A stretch of DNA of 64,000 bases from Longimicrobiales bacterium (lineage in GTDB: Bacteria > Gemmatimonadota > Gemmatimonadetes > Longimicrobiales > Gaopeijiaceae): contig CBDFIQ010000002.1 in the NCBI GenBank assembly GCA_965248195.1, positions 1,888,001-1,952,000 of the forward strand, read 5' to 3'. The translations under genes and the position numbers were made by a program. The notes beneath the pieces are model-generated. The model was not told the origin of the DNA and searched no databases. It worked only from the letters and a program-made list of their open reading frames with translations. How positions within the stretch are numbered: the first letter of the stretch is position 1; each line of letters opens with the position of its first letter. This document shows positions 30,930-38,228 of this stretch, piece after piece.

Positions 30930-31676
30930 TCAAGTTTCCCTCTCCGGGTGATGATAGAATGGCCCGTCTTTATGGGGTAGGAGCTGATCGACGAGTCCGG
31001 ACCCGGTTTCCCAGGCATCGAACTCCTCGACCAAATCTCGGTCCCATCGATCTCCGGCGGAGCGAAGACGACCCTCGAGCCACTCAGGGGCCCCAAAACC
31101 GATGGCCCGACGATAAACCTCCGCCACCTCAAATATCTTGTCCGCATACCCACCCACGTCAAGCGCGACGGTTGGGAGGCTGGAGTGCACACCCCGCATC
31201 GTGAAGATGGGGCAGAACGCTCTGTGGGGTTGCTCCGGCGCGACCACCTTGGAGATGCGTGCGAAATTAACCGCATCGCGGGCGATTTTTCCCGTCGCCT
31301 GGTGGTCCGGGTGCCGAAACCCTCGGGCCCAGGCGTCCCCCCACGTAAGGAGGCCATGGGGTCGGATCTCCGCCATCACCCGGGCGACCTCGTCGCCCGC
31401 CTCAGGCGTCGCCTGGACCGCGGAGTCCGGAAACGAAAGGAAGCGTCCCTCGACGCCCAAACACTCCACCACCCGCATGCCCAGCTCCATACGGCGCTCG
31501 GCGACTTCCGCCTTGGGGAGGGGGCCGAAAGCGTCGGTCATTTCCCCTCGTGTGAGCCAGAGCACTACGACCCTCGAGCCGGCAGCGCGTTGGGCGAGTA
31601 AAGCGCCGGCACAGAGCACCTCATCGTCCGGGTGCGCAAGCACCGCGAGGAGCGTCGGCGGGCTCGGCGTGTTCAC
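30930..31676 (-). CDS. PIG-L family deacetylase
   Basis: AHPDDE, T.GE and HPDH motifs; GTG at 31676 overlaps the rpe stop. Confidence 0.88.
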   Translation of the reverse strand: MNTPSPPTLLAVLAHPDDEVLCAGALLAQRAAGSRVVVLWLTRGEMTDAFGPLPKAEVAERRMELGMRVVECLGVEGRFLSFPDSAVQATPEAGDEVARVMAEIRPHGLLTWGDAWARGFRHPDHQATGKIARDAVNFARISKVVAPEQPHRAFCPIFTMRGVHSSLPTVALDVGGYADKIFEVAEVYRRAIGFGAPEWLEGRLRSAGDRWDRDLVEEFDAWETGSGLVDQLLPHKDGPFYHHPERET

Positions 31677-32431
31677 TAGACTGCGTCCGCTCCACCGCCC
31701 TCGGCCGCTCCACCGTCCTTGGCCGCGCCTCCCTCCTTGGCCGCGCCTCCCTCCTCGGCCGCACCTCCCTCCTCGGCCGCACGTCGGATCAGCCGAATCG
31801 CCTCCGCGATTCCATCCGGATGCCGAAATACTGCCGCCCCGGCCACAAGCACCGAGGCCCCCGCCTCGCCCGCTTCGCCCGCGGTATCGACGTTTATGCC
31901 GCCATCCACCTCGAGTTGGGCGCCGTCTGCACCGGATTCGTCGAGCATCGCCCGGAGTCCACGAATTTTTTCGGTACTCGCTGGGATGTACGCCTGCCCA
32001 CCAAACCCCGGGTTTACCGACATGATCAGCGCCAGATCGATCTCGGGTATGACCTCCGCCAGCGTCTCGAGGGATGTGGCCGGGTTCAGCGTCACTCCAG
32101 GGTGTACACCCAGCTCGTGCATACGCTCGATGGTCCTGTGAAGGTGGGGGCAAACCTCCTGATGGACCGTGATGGAGTCTGCTCCGGCATCGGCGAACGC
32201 GGAGAGATACCGGTCGGGCTCTTCGATCATCAAGTGCACATCGACGGGGAGGTCCGTAGCCGCCCGTACGGCCGACGTCACCGCGGGTCCGATCGTGATG
32301 TTGGGGACGAAGTGGCCGTCCATGACGTCCACGTGAATCCAGTCCGCTCCGGCTTCGGCGGCCTCGGACACCTGCTCGGCCAAACGCCCGAAGTCGGCGG
32401 AAAGAATGGATGGAGCGATCAGAATCGCCAT
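31676..32431 (-). CDS. rpe: Ribulose-phosphate 3-epimerase
   Basis: APSILSADF, HVDVMDGHFVPN, MSVNPGFGGQ and VDGG motifs. Confidence 0.97.
   Translation of the reverse strand: MAILIAPSILSADFGRLAEQVSEAAEAGADWIHVDVMDGHFVPNITIGPAVTSAVRAATDLPVDVHLMIEEPDRYLSAFADAGADSITVHQEVCPHLHRTIERMHELGVHPGVTLNPATSLETLAEVIPEIDLALIMSVNPGFGGQAYIPASTEKIRGLRAMLDESGADGAQLEVDGGINVDTAGEAGEAGASVLVAGAAVFRHPDGIAEAIRLIRRAAEEGGAAEEGGAAKEGGAAKDGGAAEGGGADAV
31691..31780 (-). repeat. 5 x 18-bp in-frame tandem repeat in the rpe tail
   Basis: AAEEGG-AAEEGG-AAKEGG-AAKDGG-AAEGGG. Confidence 0.9.
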
Positions 32432-32447
32432 GGAGTGTGGTCTTCCG

Positions 32448-33173
32448 TCATGGAGCGTGATGTCCCGTCGTGGCACCGTCCCCTTTGGAAAGTGTTCTCA
32501 CGCCAGCCGGACCACTGACCAAGACTTCGGTAGCCATCCCGAGAAAGAGCCCGGATTCCACGACTCCGGCTCTCTCGCGGAGGGCCAGATCAAAGCTTCT
32601 CGGGTCATCGATCGCGCCGCGAGTGTGGCAGTCGAGAATGTAGTTGCCATTGTCCGTGACCATCGGTTCTCCGTCTGGCCCCACCCGGAGCACGGCTTCG
32701 GCACCCAACGACTTCACGAACGGCCGGTGGATCTCCCATCCGAACTGTACCACCTCCACCGGCACGGGACCCAGCGTCCCGAGGGTGGGCACCATCTTGC
32801 TGTCGTCCACCATGATCGCCAACCGCCCGGACGCCTGAGCCACCATTTTTTCGCGGAGAAGCGCGCCCCCGAGGCCCTTGATGAGGTTCAACTCCGGATC
32901 GACCTCATCGGCGCCATCGATCGTCAAATCGAGAACAGGAGTTTCGGTCAAGGAGGTCAGCGGAATGCCCAGTTCCCGCGCCTCCCGAGCCGTACGAAGA
33001 GACGTGGGTACGCCGATGACGTCGATCAGGGCGCCTCCGTTGAGCCTCTCGGACAGCGCGACCAACAAGTGGGCCACGGTCGATCCGGTGCCCAAGCCCA
33101 AGCGCATCCCACTGTCCACGAGTTCGGCCGCTGCTACGCCCACCGCTTTTTTCAGTGAGTCAACGTCCGCCAA
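32448..33173 (-). CDS. rpiA: Ribose-5-phosphate isomerase A
   Basis: GLGTGST, DGADE and KGLGGALLREK motifs. Confidence 0.97.
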   Translation of the reverse strand: MADVDSLKKAVGVAAAELVDSGMRLGLGTGSTVAHLLVALSERLNGGALIDVIGVPTSLRTAREARELGIPLTSLTETPVLDLTIDGADEVDPELNLIKGLGGALLREKMVAQASGRLAIMVDDSKMVPTLGTLGPVPVEVVQFGWEIHRPFVKSLGAEAVLRVGPDGEPMVTDNGNYILDCHTRGAIDDPRSFDLALRERAGVVESGLFLGMATEVLVSGPAGVRTLSKGDGATTGHHAP

Positions 33174-33206
33174 GTGGCTCTCCCGGCGTGCGGACTGCGG
33201 GCTTCG

Positions 33207-34145
33207 TCAGGCGCCAAACCCCTTCATCAGCTCGTGGACCCGCTCGCTGATGGCCAGCGCTTCGTCGAAGGGCCTTTGCCACATGTTGCGGCCGAAGATG
33301 AGACCGGTCGCACCGGCTTCCAGCCCGGTACGCACCTTGGTCAGGAGGTCGTCATCCCCGAGCTTGCTGCCACCGGAAAAAAGTACGAGACAGCGCCCGG
33401 CAGACTCCACCACCCGCTTCGCGCCCTCGCCATAGTCGTAGTCGATTTCGGCGTATTCCGCAGGCTGCTCGGCGTCCTTGGGACCGTGCTTCGGGATGTT
33501 CAACTTCACGATGTCGGCACCCATTTCGAGGGCGACTCGGGCGGCATAATCGACGGCGTAGAGGCTGTCTCGCCCTCCCTTCTCCTCGATCGCGGCACCC
33601 CGCGGGTACGACCACACCACCAGAGGCATGTTGTACTTGTCGCAGTCTTCACGAACGAGTTGGAGTTGTTGGAGATCCTCATCCTGCCGGGGAGAACCGA
33701 CATACAGTGTGTAGCCGACGGCGTCGGCACCCAGCGATACCGCGTCCTCGACGCTACCGGTCAACGACGAAAGGGCCTCCGCATCGGAGGGGATCGTGGT
33801 CTTGCCGTTGATCTTCAGCAGGAGCGGCACCTCGCCCGCATACTTCGTCATGTACTTGCTGGCGAGTCCGTAATGACATGCCACCGCGTTGAAGTTGCCC
33901 TCCAGCGCCAGCCGCCACTGAAAATCCGGATCCTGGGACGGCGGGTTGGGAAAAAAGTCGATCGGCCCATGCTCCAAACCCTGGTCGATGGGGAGGATGA
34001 GAAGCGTACCGTTCTTCAAGCCTCGTCCATAGAGAAGTCTACGAAGGCGTACGCGTTTCCCGAGTGGCAGGTCGAGTTCATCGAGGACGGGGCGCGCGAC
34101 GCCCGCCCTGACGGCGGGCTCCGCGTCTACCGTGGCGGTCGACAT
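33207..34145 (-). CDS. Class I (DhnA-type) fructose-bisphosphate aldolase
   Basis: LPIDQGLEHGP, WSYPRG, GADIVK, SGG and GRNMWQR motifs; ATG at 34145. Confidence 0.92.
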   Translation of the reverse strand: MSTATVDAEPAVRAGVARPVLDELDLPLGKRVRLRRLLYGRGLKNGTLLILPIDQGLEHGPIDFFPNPPSQDPDFQWRLALEGNFNAVACHYGLASKYMTKYAGEVPLLLKINGKTTIPSDAEALSSLTGSVEDAVSLGADAVGYTLYVGSPRQDEDLQQLQLVREDCDKYNMPLVVWSYPRGAAIEEKGGRDSLYAVDYAARVALEMGADIVKLNIPKHGPKDAEQPAEYAEIDYDYGEGAKRVVESAGRCLVLFSGGSKLGDDDLLTKVRTGLEAGATGLIFGRNMWQRPFDEALAISERVHELMKGFGA

Positions 34146-34238
34146 GAATAGATCCTCCAACGTGAAAAAAATGTCAGTGGCGGGCCGATTTTCGTGCCAG
34201 AATCTAAGAACGCAGAGGGCCATGGGCCAGCCCGTCTC

Positions 34239-34267
34239 TTGACTCCTCGTCGTCGCGAGCACAGCTT
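34239..34267 (+). promoter_or_regulatory. Putative sigma70 promoter for the leader-aroF transcript
   Basis: TTGACT-17 nt-CAGCTT; predicted start near the leader ATG at 34275. Confidence 0.55.
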
Positions 34268-34274
34268 CCAGCCC

Positions 34275-34343
34275 ATGATTCACGCGCACAGACATGAGGC
34301 TTTCTACTTTACGGGCCGGCCCCCTCCGGGAGCCGGCGGTTGA
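34275..34343 (+). CDS. Putative attenuator leader peptide MIHAHRHEAFYFTGRPPPGAGG
   Basis: 22-aa ORF with consecutive TTC-TAC-TTT codons, upstream of a terminator and DAHP synthase. Confidence 0.75.
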   Translation: MIHAHRHEAFYFTGRPPPGAGG

Positions 34344-34378
34344 TGCGCGCGCGCTGAGCGGAATCGCGTTTCGTCCTG

Positions 34379-34410
34379 AGGCTCTCGACTCCTGGTCGGG
34401 GGCCTTTTTT
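34379..34410 (+). terminator. Attenuator terminator hairpin
   Basis: AGGCTCTCGAC/GTCGGGGGCCT stem ending in a T6 run, 50 nt before the aroF start. Confidence 0.85.
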
Positions 34411-34460
34411 CGTGGCCGCTCACTTGAAAAGCCGGCCATCACTCACAATCTGAGAAGACC

Positions 34461-35495
34461 ATGATCATTATCACTCGCCCCGGAGTGACAGACGAAGAGC
34501 TCGACCACATCCGGGAACGAATCGAAGCCCTAGGACCTCGGACTCACCTCGTTCGGGGCAAGCACCGGACGGTCGTCCTGTGTATCGGAGAGCAGGAGGA
34601 TCTGGCCAATGTGCCCATGCTCTCGATCCCCGGGGTCGAGAGCGTTCGCGCGGTCATGAAGCCGTACAAGCTGGCGAACCGGCAAGTCCAACCGGAGCCC
34701 ACGGAGGTTCCTGTCGGCAGTGGCACGATCGGAGGGGATGCCCTCTCGATCATCGCGGGACCCTGCTCGGTGGAGGGCCTCACCATGCTCCAGGATACTG
34801 CGCGCCACGTAAAGGCCGCGGGAGCGACCGCACTGCGCGGCGGGGCGTTCAAGCCGAGGAGCTCCCCCTATGCGTTCGACGGCCTCGGTGAAGAAGGTCT
34901 GAAGATGCTTGCGGACGTGCGAGCCGAGACTGGACTCCCGGTGGTGACGGAAGTCATGGATACGCGGCAGGTCGACCTGGTCGCAGAGTACGCGGACGTA
35001 CTCCAGATCGGAGCCAGAAACATGCAGAATTATTCCCTCCTCACCGAGGTCGGGCGGCTGCACCGGCCGATCCTTCTCAAACGCGGGATGTCGGCCAAGG
35101 TCGCGGACCTTCTCCTGGCCGCCGAATACGTCATGAAGCAGGGGAACATGAACGTCGTGCTTTGTGAGCGAGGCATCCGGACCTTCGAGGACTCCACGCG
35201 CAACACGTTCGATCTGGCCGCGATTCCCGTGCTAAAGAAGGAGACCCATCTTCCCGTGGTGGCCGATCCCAGCCACGCGGCGGGGCGGCGAGACCTGGTG
35301 CCGGCCCTCTCCTACGCGGCGATCGCGGCTGGCGCAGACGGCCTCATTATCGAGGTCCATCCCGACCCGGAGATGGCCGTTTCCGATGGGGACCAATCTT
35401 TGGTGTTCGACGAATTCGAGTCGCTCATGGCCGCCCTGGCACCCTTTGCGGCGGCCGCAGGGAGGACGATGGAGGATCTCAACGGAGAGGCCTGA
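34461..35495 (+). CDS. aroF: 3-deoxy-7-phosphoheptulonate (DAHP) synthase, type I-beta with N-terminal regulatory domain
   Basis: [36 protein letters not shown] and DPSH motifs. Confidence 0.95.
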
Positions 35496-36867: not shown

Positions 36868-38228
36868 CCCGCCGGGGTTTTGAGGCCCGCGGACTCCATC
36901 ATCTCGGTCACGGCCTCGTTCGTCTCGGTCTCGGCGCCCTTCTTGTGCGCCCCCTTGCTCTCCCCGCCCTCACTCTCCCCGCCCTTTTTTTCCCCGCCTT
37001 TCTTCTCCCCGCCCTTCTTCCTCCCGCCCTGGCCGCTGTCCCGCTCCGCCGCAACCCGCGCAGGAAGCCCGAACAACTTGATGAACCCTTCGGCGTCGGC
37101 ATGGTCGTACGTCGCCTCTTCACCGAAAGACGCGAGTCCGGCGTGGTACAACGACTCGGGGCTCCTACGGCTCGCCACCGATGCCGAACCCTTGTAGAGC
37201 TTCAAGCGCACGACACCCGTGACCCGCTTCATGAGGACGTCCATGAACGCATCCATGGCCTCTCTCTCAGGCGTCCACCACCAGCCCTCGTATACCAGAT
37301 CCGCGTAGCGGCCCGCGACCTGATCCTTGAACGCTAGAGCCCGGCGATCGAGTGTGAGCTGCTCGAGTTCCTGAAGCGCGGTATAGAGAAGCGTTCCCCC
37401 AGGGGTCTCATACACGCCACGCGACTTCATTCCGACCAGCCGGTCCTCCACGAGATCCACCCTCCCTACGCCATGCCGGGAGCCGATCTCGTTCAAGGCC
37501 AGGAGGAGGTGTACCGAGTCCATGGCCTCATCGTTGACCGACACGGGAAATCCCTGCTCGAAGCCGATCTCCAGGTATTCGGGTGTGTCCGGCGCGGCCT
37601 CGGGAGCCGTGGTCCATTGGTACATCGAGTCATCGGGCTCGAACGCGGGATCCTCGAGCGGACCACCCTCGTGCGAGATATGCCAGATGTTCTCGTCGCG
37701 TGAATAGAGCTTGGTCTCGTCGACACCTACAAGGGGTATCTCGCGAGCGCGGGCGTACTCCAATGCGTCCTCACGGGACTGCAGATCCCACTCGCGCCAG
37801 GGAGCGATCACACGGAGATCCGGTGCGAGCGCGGTAAACGTCAGCTCGAACCGAACCTGATCGTTTCCCTTGCCGGTGCAGCCATGCGAAAGCGCATCCG
37901 CTCCAACCTCGCGGGCCACCTCTACCATCCGGCGCGCGATGATGGGACGCGCCATGCAAGTGCCCAGGAGGTACTTGCGACCGTAGACGGCTCCTGAACG
38001 AAGCGTCGGCCACACGAAATCTTCGACGAACTCCCTGCGCAGGTCCTCGCCGTGGAACTCCGCGGCCCCAGTCGCCTCGGCCCGCTCCCCGAGCCCGTCG
38101 AGACCGCCCGGCTGTCCCACGTCGGCAGCCACGCAAATGACCTCGGCGTCGTAGTTCTCACGAAGCCACGGAACGATGACGGACGTGTCCAGTCCACCGG
38201 AGTACGCGAGCACCACCTTCAGCGCCAT
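36864..38228 (-). CDS. argG: Argininosuccinate synthase
   Basis: AYSGGLDTS, HGCTGKGNDQVRFE and GMKSRGVYETP motifs. Confidence 0.97.
   Translation of the reverse strand: MALKVVLAYSGGLDTSVIVPWLRENYDAEVICVAADVGQPGGLDGLGERAEATGAAEFHGEDLRREFVEDFVWPTLRSGAVYGRKYLLGTCMARPIIARRMVEVAREVGADALSHGCTGKGNDQVRFELTFTALAPDLRVIAPWREWDLQSREDALEYARAREIPLVGVDETKLYSRDENIWHISHEGGPLEDPAFEPDDSMYQWTTAPEAAPDTPEYLEIGFEQGFPVSVNDEAMDSVHLLLALNEIGSRHGVGRVDLVEDRLVGMKSRGVYETPGGTLLYTALQELEQLTLDRRALAFKDQVAGRYADLVYEGWWWTPEREAMDAFMDVLMKRVTGVVRLKLYKGSASVASRRSPESLYHAGLASFGEEATYDHADAEGFIKLFGLPARVAAERDSGQGGRKKGGEKKGGEKKGGESEGGESKGAHKKGAETETNEAVTEMMESAGLKTPAG
36924..37028 (-). repeat. 7 x 15-bp in-frame tandem repeat in the argG tail
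   Basis: GGRKK-GGEKK-GGEKK-GGESE-GGESK-GAHKK-GAETE. Confidence 0.85.

What the first reader, a model, noticed from the sequence alone, without database searches (positions are those of the whole stretch)
34239..34460. Complete candidate Phe/Tyr-sensing attenuator with a leaderless leader peptide upstream of DAHP synthase
Seen: a 22-codon ORF (34275-34343, MIHAHRHEAFYFTGRPPPGAGG) with Phe-Tyr-Phe codons at 34302-34310. Seen: three mutually exclusive pairings. Stem 1:2 is GCCGGC 34315-20 with GCCGGC 34332-37 plus CCC/GGG. The 2:3 antiterminator is CGGGAGCC 34327-34 with GGCTCTCG 34380-87. The 3:4 terminator is 34379-34405 followed by the U-run to 34410. TTGACT-17-CAGCTT places transcription start at about the leader AUG, which has no SD. 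Known: this is the trp/phe attenuator logic, and DAHP synthase is the entry step of aromatic amino-acid synthesis. Inference: a ribosome stalled at FYF covers segment 1 and permits read-through; the RPPP run may add pausing. I know of no described attenuator in this probable lineage, and the ORF track misses it.
Basis: partly seen in the sequence, partly recalled or inferred. Interest (0 to 1): 0.85.

Follow-up and report, generated by a model that had tools for sequence, protein, structure and literature searches.

The report
Leaderless aromatic attenuator before DAHP synthase
A 22-codon mini-gene with Phe-Tyr-Phe codons and a predicted switchable transcription stop signal sits in front of the first enzyme of aromatic amino-acid synthesis in this bacterium and most relatives examined, and likely lets a stalling ribosome turn that enzyme on when these amino acids run short, a textbook control seen here in a little-studied phylum.

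Summary
The downstream gene is a type I-beta DAHP synthase; close relatives are Longimicrobiales (Gemmatimonadota). About 120 of 151 distinct loci of this aroF clade carry the same design: a -35 box about 36 nt before an ATG with no Shine-Dalgarno, an F/Y/W codon cluster, an antiterminator segment about 10 nt further on, and an intrinsic terminator. Antiterminator and terminator arm co-vary (0 of 10,000 permutations as good; 20 double changes by parsimony). In folding models, read-through is favoured only until the ribosome passes the aromatic codons. Two corrections: RPPP is not conserved (7 of 108), and a pause there would favour termination; here the last Phe is the most robust predicted sensor, whereas Tyr dominates in the class. 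The same logic, even F-Y-F before aroF, is published for Corynebacterium glutamicum (aroR). This scan already noted the element in at least five other Gemmatimonadota genomes. Rfam has no match, and my literature searches found no report for the phylum. No expression data could test it. Verdict: real, a new member of a known kind, modest interest.

The parts
34239..34244 (+). -35 box TTGACT of the predicted aroF leader promoter
   Evidence: Sequence. TTGACT in 15 of 15 aligned close loci. TTG-anchored spacing to the ATG is 35-38 nt in 98 of 101 loci, within a searched range of 34-39. Kept in about 12 loci whose leader is deleted (by eye).
34262..34267 (+). Weak -10 box CAGCTT (A at position 2, T at position 6); predicted start at or next to the A of the leader ATG
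   Evidence: Across 108 leaders A peaks at -12/-11 (0.43/0.42) and T at -8/-7 (0.51/0.52) relative to the ATG. Fails the strict scan. Start site not measured.
34275..34343 (+). Leader ORF of 22 codons, predicted leaderless
   Evidence: Anti-SD pairing 0 kcal/mol here; 6% of 108 leader ATGs vs 76% of their aroF ATGs have an SD. No indel between ATG and codon 12 in 15 of 15 close loci. No Pfam match.
34302..34310 (+). Sensor codons Phe10-Tyr11-Phe12
   Evidence: F/Y/W make up 20.2% of leader codons vs 3.3% and 4.7% in the other two frames and 7.6% in long ORFs of this genome. Synonymous changes at these codons in L009.
34315..34323 (+). Segment 1 (5' arm of the 1:2 protector hairpin, pairs with 34328-34337)
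   Evidence: Fold at -19.0 kcal/mol. Cognate 1:2 pairing beats permuted partners, z -7.8; the region boundaries depend on the segment 2 call.
34327..34334 (+). Segment 2 (antiterminator strand, pairs with 34380-34387)
   Evidence: Cognate duplex mean -18.2 vs permuted -15.3 kcal/mol, 0 of 10,000. Compensatory changes on the aroF tree.
34338..34376 (+). Predicted hairpin inside the 2:3 loop, containing a GCGCG-type motif kept about 20 nt after segment 2; alternatively pairs with the 5' end of the leader
   Evidence: Folds. Motif near the stop in 77 of 108 leaders. Role not established.
34379..34410 (+). Intrinsic terminator 3:4 and U-run
   Evidence: A terminator of -12 kcal/mol or better was called in 108 of 116 leaders tested.
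34412..34439 (+). Small hairpin between terminator and aroF start, seen in the closest relatives only
   Evidence: A similar hairpin is predicted in most of the 9 closest loci and not in L011, L039, L043 or L044. Function unknown.
34461..35495 (+). aroF, type I-beta DAHP synthase with N-terminal ferredoxin-like regulatory domain; stands alone here, followed by a convergent argH
   Evidence: NF006421 and TIGR01361 above cut-off; PF18152 + PF00793; best PDB hits include 1RZM/3PG9, E 2e-104.
33207..34145 (-). Divergent class I fructose-bisphosphate aldolase-like gene; shows the terminator cannot be the end of an upstream + strand gene
   Evidence: NF006704, E 6e-64, below its cut-off. The long - strand ORF extension over the leader holds stops in 6 of 7 relatives where the frame was printed.

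Best explanation
This is likely a ribosome-mediated transcription attenuator that makes aroF transcription depend on charged aromatic aminoacyl-tRNA. Shown in sequence: promoter boxes, ORF, aromatic codons, three overlapping helices, terminator, their conservation and their covariation. Inferred steps: (1) RNA polymerase starts at about the leader AUG and a ribosome loads directly on the 5' end. (2) When Phe-tRNA (and probably Tyr-tRNA) is scarce, the ribosome stalls in codons 10-12, covers segment 1 and leaves segment 2 free just beyond its leading edge; 2:3 forms, the terminator cannot, and aroF is transcribed. (3) When tRNAs are charged, the ribosome runs onto segment 2 (codon 16 onward) or leaves 1:2 to re-form, 3:4 forms, and transcription ends near 34410. 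(4) With no translation 1:2 and 3:4 form, so this copy is predicted to be off. In this genome Phe12 is the most robust predicted sensor. Across the class the cluster is Tyr-rich (107 of 108), often with Phe (78) and Trp (66), pooling all three end products at the first pathway step.
For: About 120 of 151 in-clade loci have the design (108 by script; 12 more by eye). 98 of 101 promoter-picked ORFs have an aromatic cluster vs 8 of 51 in the genome control. The peptide sequence is otherwise free and the enrichment is frame-specific (20% vs 3-5%). Segment 2 co-varies with the terminator arm (0 of 10,000 permutations), while the untranscribed promoter spacer does not (z -0.2). Parsimony on 104 loci gives 20 double compensatory and 34 one-sided pair-keeping changes. 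The last aromatic codon lies a median 10 nt (quartiles 7-12) before segment 2, about one ribosome edge. Modelled P(2:3) over 108 loci is about 0.8 up to the last aromatic codon, 0.20 two codons later and 0.01 four codons later; the drop persists with edges +6 and +12. The upstream gene is divergent. Functional precedent: C. glutamicum aroR.
Against: No 5' end, 3' end or regulation data: the runs found hold only contigs of relatives. The -10 box is weak. Parsimony also gives 57 pair-breaking changes, 44 of them in the four outer columns, and the register was set by a duplex fold, which inflates pairing. The fall of P(2:3) once segment 2 is masked is built into the model; only its position relative to the aromatic codons is informative. 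In this genome edges of +5 to +7 put all of F-Y-F outside the read-through window. With no ribosome, mean P(2:3) over the class is 0.51, so the off state without translation is not general. About 31 of 151 loci lack an intact leader. Loci are related and were de-duplicated only by identical 200 nt.
Confidence: 0.88

Rival explanations
1. The switch is ribosome-driven but reads general translation speed or polyproline pausing (EF-P, nascent peptide) rather than aromatic tRNA charging.
For: RPPP/WPPP follows the cluster in this genus. The read-through window here also spans Thr13-Gly14-Arg15. Leaders are Arg-rich, 15.6%.
Against: PPP is in 7 of 108 leaders and PP in 19. The C-run is explained by 1:2 pairing. 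Modelled P(2:3) is about 0 at Pro17-18 for every edge tested. Only F/Y/W are conserved, in one frame. Codon 15 is Trp in 4 of the 9 closest loci.
Confidence: 0.05
2. The terminator/antiterminator is switched by a metabolite, uncharged tRNA (T-box) or an RNA-binding protein, and the ORF is incidental.
For: A GCGCG-type motif is kept near the stop at the RNA level in 77 of 108 leaders.
Against: No Rfam family reaches its threshold (best E 0.81). The 5' part has no conserved sequence or consensus fold. ATG position, frame and aromatic codons are conserved, with synonymous changes.
Confidence: 0.03
3. A separate small-peptide or small-RNA gene with its own constitutive terminator; aroF has another promoter downstream.
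For: The terminator is strong (-18.7 kcal/mol) and 50 nt remain before aroF.
Against: No promoter-like site is found there. The peptide sequence is not conserved beyond composition. Segment 2 co-varies with the terminator. About 12 loci that lost the leader keep the same TTGACA box directly before aroF.
Confidence: 0.03

Closest known systems
Corynebacterium glutamicum aroR-aroF attenuator (PMC4046766 and PMC11802643, passages read; Neshat et al. 2014 not held)
   Same: Leader peptide with Phe-Tyr-Phe before a DAHP synthase gene. The review passage reports de-repression under Phe limitation and no effect of Tyr, which parallels the Phe12-dominant prediction here. That this leader is leaderless is recalled, not seen in a call.
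   Different: Different phylum. The enzyme here is type I-beta with a ferredoxin-like domain (the C. glutamicum enzyme is type I-alpha, recalled). The Gemmatimonadetes family is mostly Tyr-rich with variable Phe and Trp, so F-Y-F is a local state. Sequence homology was not tested; independent origin is inferred.
Enterobacterial pheL-pheA and trpL attenuators (PMC3082878 abstract and passages; mechanism as summarised in bioRxiv 10.1101/834739 passages)
   Same: Leader ORF with cognate codons, alternative antiterminator and intrinsic terminator.
   Different: No Rfam Phe or Trp leader match. No SD before the leader. It controls the common first step and senses several amino acids. Segment 2 lies inside the ORF, a median 19 nt before the stop.
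Putative attenuator before aroA-I-beta > tyrA in Thermus thermophilus (Table 7 of PMC1173090, passage)
   Same: Predicted attenuator directly before a type I-beta DAHP synthase gene.
   Different: Prediction only; no leader peptide is described in the passages seen; not examined here.
Mycobacterial leaderless poly-Cys short ORF attenuators (bioRxiv 10.1101/834739, abstract start and passages)
   Same: Leaderless sensor ORF at the 5' end of the transcript.
   Different: Those sense cysteine and act on translation by masking the SD; this one has an intrinsic terminator.

Membership tests
Ribosome-mediated (leader-peptide) transcription attenuator | Short upstream ORF enriched in codons for the pathway's end products | tested here: met
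   98 of 101 promoter-picked ORFs; 20% F/Y/W in frame vs 3-5% out of frame
Ribosome-mediated (leader-peptide) transcription attenuator | Intrinsic terminator between leader and first gene | tested here: met
   108 of 116 leaders
Ribosome-mediated (leader-peptide) transcription attenuator | Antiterminator mutually exclusive with the terminator, and an upstream protector helix | tested here: met
   Covariation and permutation tests
Ribosome-mediated (leader-peptide) transcription attenuator | Spacing such that a ribosome stalled at sensor codons frees segment 2 | tested here: met
   Median 10 nt; model met across the class; in this genome only for footprint edges of +8 or more
Ribosome-mediated (leader-peptide) transcription attenuator | Leader is translated and read-through rises on amino-acid limitation | not testable with these tools
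   No raw reads or ribosome profiling
Leaderless leader peptide | Transcription start at the AUG, no SD | tested here: inconclusive
   Promoter spacing and absent SD fit; the start itself was not measured
Rfam amino-acid leader, T-box or riboswitch families | Match to a covariance model above the gathering score | tested here: not met
   Window 33900-34700: only suhB (E 0.81) and ncS037 (E 3.9), far below threshold
C. glutamicum aroR (as a homologue) | Shared sequence or descent of leader and aroF | not tested
   The C. glutamicum sequence was not fetched

The most novel reading that the evidence does not exclude
A class-wide, independently evolved family of leaderless tri-aromatic attenuators in Gemmatimonadetes, absent from Rfam, in which single codon changes retune which amino acid is sensed (for example Arg/Trp at codon 15 within this genus), and in which an extra long-range helix folds the leader's 5' end onto the stop-codon region to shut off re-loading of ribosomes on the finished leader RNA. 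The family itself is well supported. The 5'-sequestering helix is only weakly supported (cognate vs permuted z -5.8 at fixed length, but 27 of 108 loci significant against own shuffles, and no excess in this genome).
Probability: 0.25. Interest if true: 0.6.

Novelty: new member of a known kind. Interest (0 to 1): 0.4.

Why it matters
It extends classical attenuation to a widespread, mostly uncultured phylum, and it supplies an alignable RNA family missing from Rfam and a small ORF missed by gene callers. About 120 natural variants, including deletions and decayed copies, allow a direct test of how sensor-codon choice, footprint geometry and leaderless initiation set attenuator output. It changes no principle.

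Tried and rejected
RNA evidence: the 16 runs listed are all contigs; the four laid (two on record as RNA) are relatives at mostly under 95% identity and extend upstream of the promoter, and contigs also stop at the hairpin in the run of unrecorded library type, so they say nothing on starts or ends. Idea that Trp codons in the leader track Trp synthesis: rejected, since trpA is over cut-off in 66 of 69 leader-bearing genomes whether or not the leader has Trp. Idea that the - strand ORF 33207-34442 is a long aldolase covering the leader: rejected (stops in relatives; family match starts at the 34145 start). A Thr/Met-rich leader candidate at G000 C2:3325158 was rejected, as it lies in a low-complexity repeat with no promoter. 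Long-range 5'-end helix: mixed and not recovered by consensus folding of two clades. The downstream-gene survey was noisy: its largest cluster looks like antisense frames of convergent genes, and the cluster that looks like prephenate dehydratase (26 ORFs) was named from recall only because the confirming scan failed. Alignment mixed orientations and was discarded; it was redone. One search timed out. Rows dropped: 13 of 172 loci (12 duplicates and one KDO8P synthase-like locus), 8 of 116 leaders without a terminator call, and 4 of 108 without an anchor.

Full report
Observation. The terminator scan finds the hairpin; the promoter scan finds nothing, because the -10 box is weak. The region alone folds only slightly better than shuffles (z -1.87), and Rfam gives no real match. 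The case therefore rests on comparison.

Context. The downstream gene is a DAHP synthase of type I-beta with an N-terminal ferredoxin-like domain (best PDB hits include 1RZM/3PG9; that this domain mediates Tyr/Phe feedback is recalled). Upstream lies a divergent aldolase-like gene and downstream a convergent argH, so the terminator cannot end another + strand gene. Records 87-92% identical are titled Longimicrobiales or Gemmatimonadota. The genome holds two further DAHP synthase genes (78% and 50% identical), neither with a leader, plus matches to PDT, PDH, chorismate synthase, trpB and trpA.

Conservation. I gathered 172 loci; 159 remained after dropping 12 with identical upstream 200 nt and one KDO8P synthase-like locus. 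Choosing ORFs by promoter alone (TTG hexamer 34-39 nt before an ATG) gave 101 short ORFs, of which 98 have at least three F/Y/W in seven codons. A similar genome-wide scan gives 8 of 51, and only this locus also has a terminator. Adding 15 leaders found in a second pass that did use aromatic content, 108 of 116 had a terminator call. Reading the other 51 loci by eye gave 12 more intact-looking leaders, 8 distant paralogues, 5 copies of a genus-specific second paralogue, 5 decayed leaders, 12 with the promoter kept and the leader partly or wholly deleted, and 9 with nothing recognisable. That is about 120 of 151 in-clade loci; one of the 108 (L099) looks decayed. Leaders are spread across the aroF tree, in the order and in other families of the class, with scattered losses (output partly cut). 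The five loci from the other class, which are distant paralogues, have none.

Peptide and start. F/Y/W are 20.2% of leader codons, against 3.3% and 4.7% in the other frames and 7.6% in long ORFs of this genome; Tyr occurs in 107, Phe in 78, Trp in 66 and all three in 46 of 108. TAT and TTT, minor codons in this genome, are common in the leaders. A and T peak at -12/-11 and -8/-7 from the ATG, as for a -10 box, and 6% of leader starts have an SD against 76% of aroF starts. Leaderless initiation is thus well supported but not measured.

RNA switch. Each leader's distal ORF pairs with its own terminator arm better than with others (-18.2 vs -15.3 kcal/mol; 0 of 10,000 permutations; 64 of 108 also beat 95% of own shuffles), whereas the untranscribed promoter spacer shows no such effect (z -0.2). 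Anchored columns show double-sided variation, for example G-C 44, A-U 39, G-U 15 at one pair and G-C 64, C-G 20 at another. Parsimony over 104 loci counts 20 double compensatory, 34 one-sided, 57 breaking, 8 restoring and 4 other changes. Kin are not independent, so the permutation figure overstates. Segment 2 starts a median 10 nt after the last aromatic codon. With a masked footprint on the nascent RNA, mean P(2:3) is about 0.8 up to that codon and near 0 three to four codons on; it is 0.35 at the stop and 0.51 with no ribosome. In this genome P(2:3) is 0 without a ribosome and about 1 from Phe12 to Arg15 for edges +8 to +10. Tyr11 joins at +10 and Phe10 at +12; at +7 or less none of F-Y-F works. 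At Pro17-18 it is 0 for all edges. So RPPP, present in 7 of 108 leaders, cannot aid read-through and reflects the C-rich segment 1.

Extra helix. The first codons pair with the stop region better in cognate than in permuted pairs (z -8.8; -5.8 at fixed length; controls null). But only 27 of 108 loci beat their own shuffles, the gain in 5' pairing is small (0.57 vs 0.53; none in this genome), and consensus folding does not recover the helix. It is a lead only.

Known systems. C. glutamicum has a Phe-Tyr-Phe leader before aroF (PMC4046766, passages), reported to respond to Phe but not Tyr (PMC11802643, passages); the primary paper was not held. A putative attenuator precedes aroA-I-beta in Thermus thermophilus (PMC1173090, passage). 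Leaderless sensor ORFs are described in mycobacteria (bioRxiv 10.1101/834739, passages). Searches for Gemmatimonad with attenuation and leader peptide (0 papers), with attenuator (1 unrelated listing) and with leaderless (6 listings, one read as passages and not relevant) found no description; subscription literature and supplements were not seen. Unchecked notes of this scan report the same element in at least five other Gemmatimonadota genomes and similar designs in cyanobacteria and archaea. They are not independent support.

Verdict. A real, conserved attenuator-type leader; it works like trpL, pheL and aroR, belongs to no Rfam family, and is probably of independent origin (inferred). Confidence in the mechanism 0.88; interest 0.4.

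Noticed in passing
G000:C2:2832533-2832720 (+): His-rich 27-codon leader with TTGACC 36 nt before its ATG and a terminator, before a gene that looks like hisG (named from recall): a second predicted leaderless attenuator in this genome.
   Followed up: partly
G000:C2:2612212 (-): Val/Ile-rich short ORF with a terminator before a gene that looks like ilvC (named from recall); candidate branched-chain attenuator, no promoter match at 34-39 nt.
   Followed up: partly
G000:C2:2895127 and 2891610 (-): Two Cys-rich leaders with terminators, already noted by this scan.
   Followed up: partly
L031 (G000:C2:2877181), L040, L041: The genus-specific second aroF paralogue keeps only the terminator's 3' arm and U-run; the leader is lost.
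   Followed up: partly
L055, L056, L067, L066, L028, L087, L099, L109: Natural deletions or decay of the leader (ATG lost, aromatic codons lost, or fusion across the segment 2/segment 4 direct repeat), some leaving an intact terminator; assembly error not excluded.
   Followed up: partly
window 31676-34145 (-): Genes for rpe-like, rpiA and aldolase-like enzymes are transcribed divergently from aroF, placing erythrose-4-phosphate supply genes back to back with it.
   Followed up: no
G000:C2:1214876-1216014 (+): trpB matches in two frames near residue 310 and trpA lies about 3 kb further on: possible frameshift, insertion or assembly error.
   Followed up: no
window 36900-37050: The C-terminal extension of argG carries a short GGEKK-type repeat; the rpe-like gene also ends in a short repeat.
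   Followed up: no
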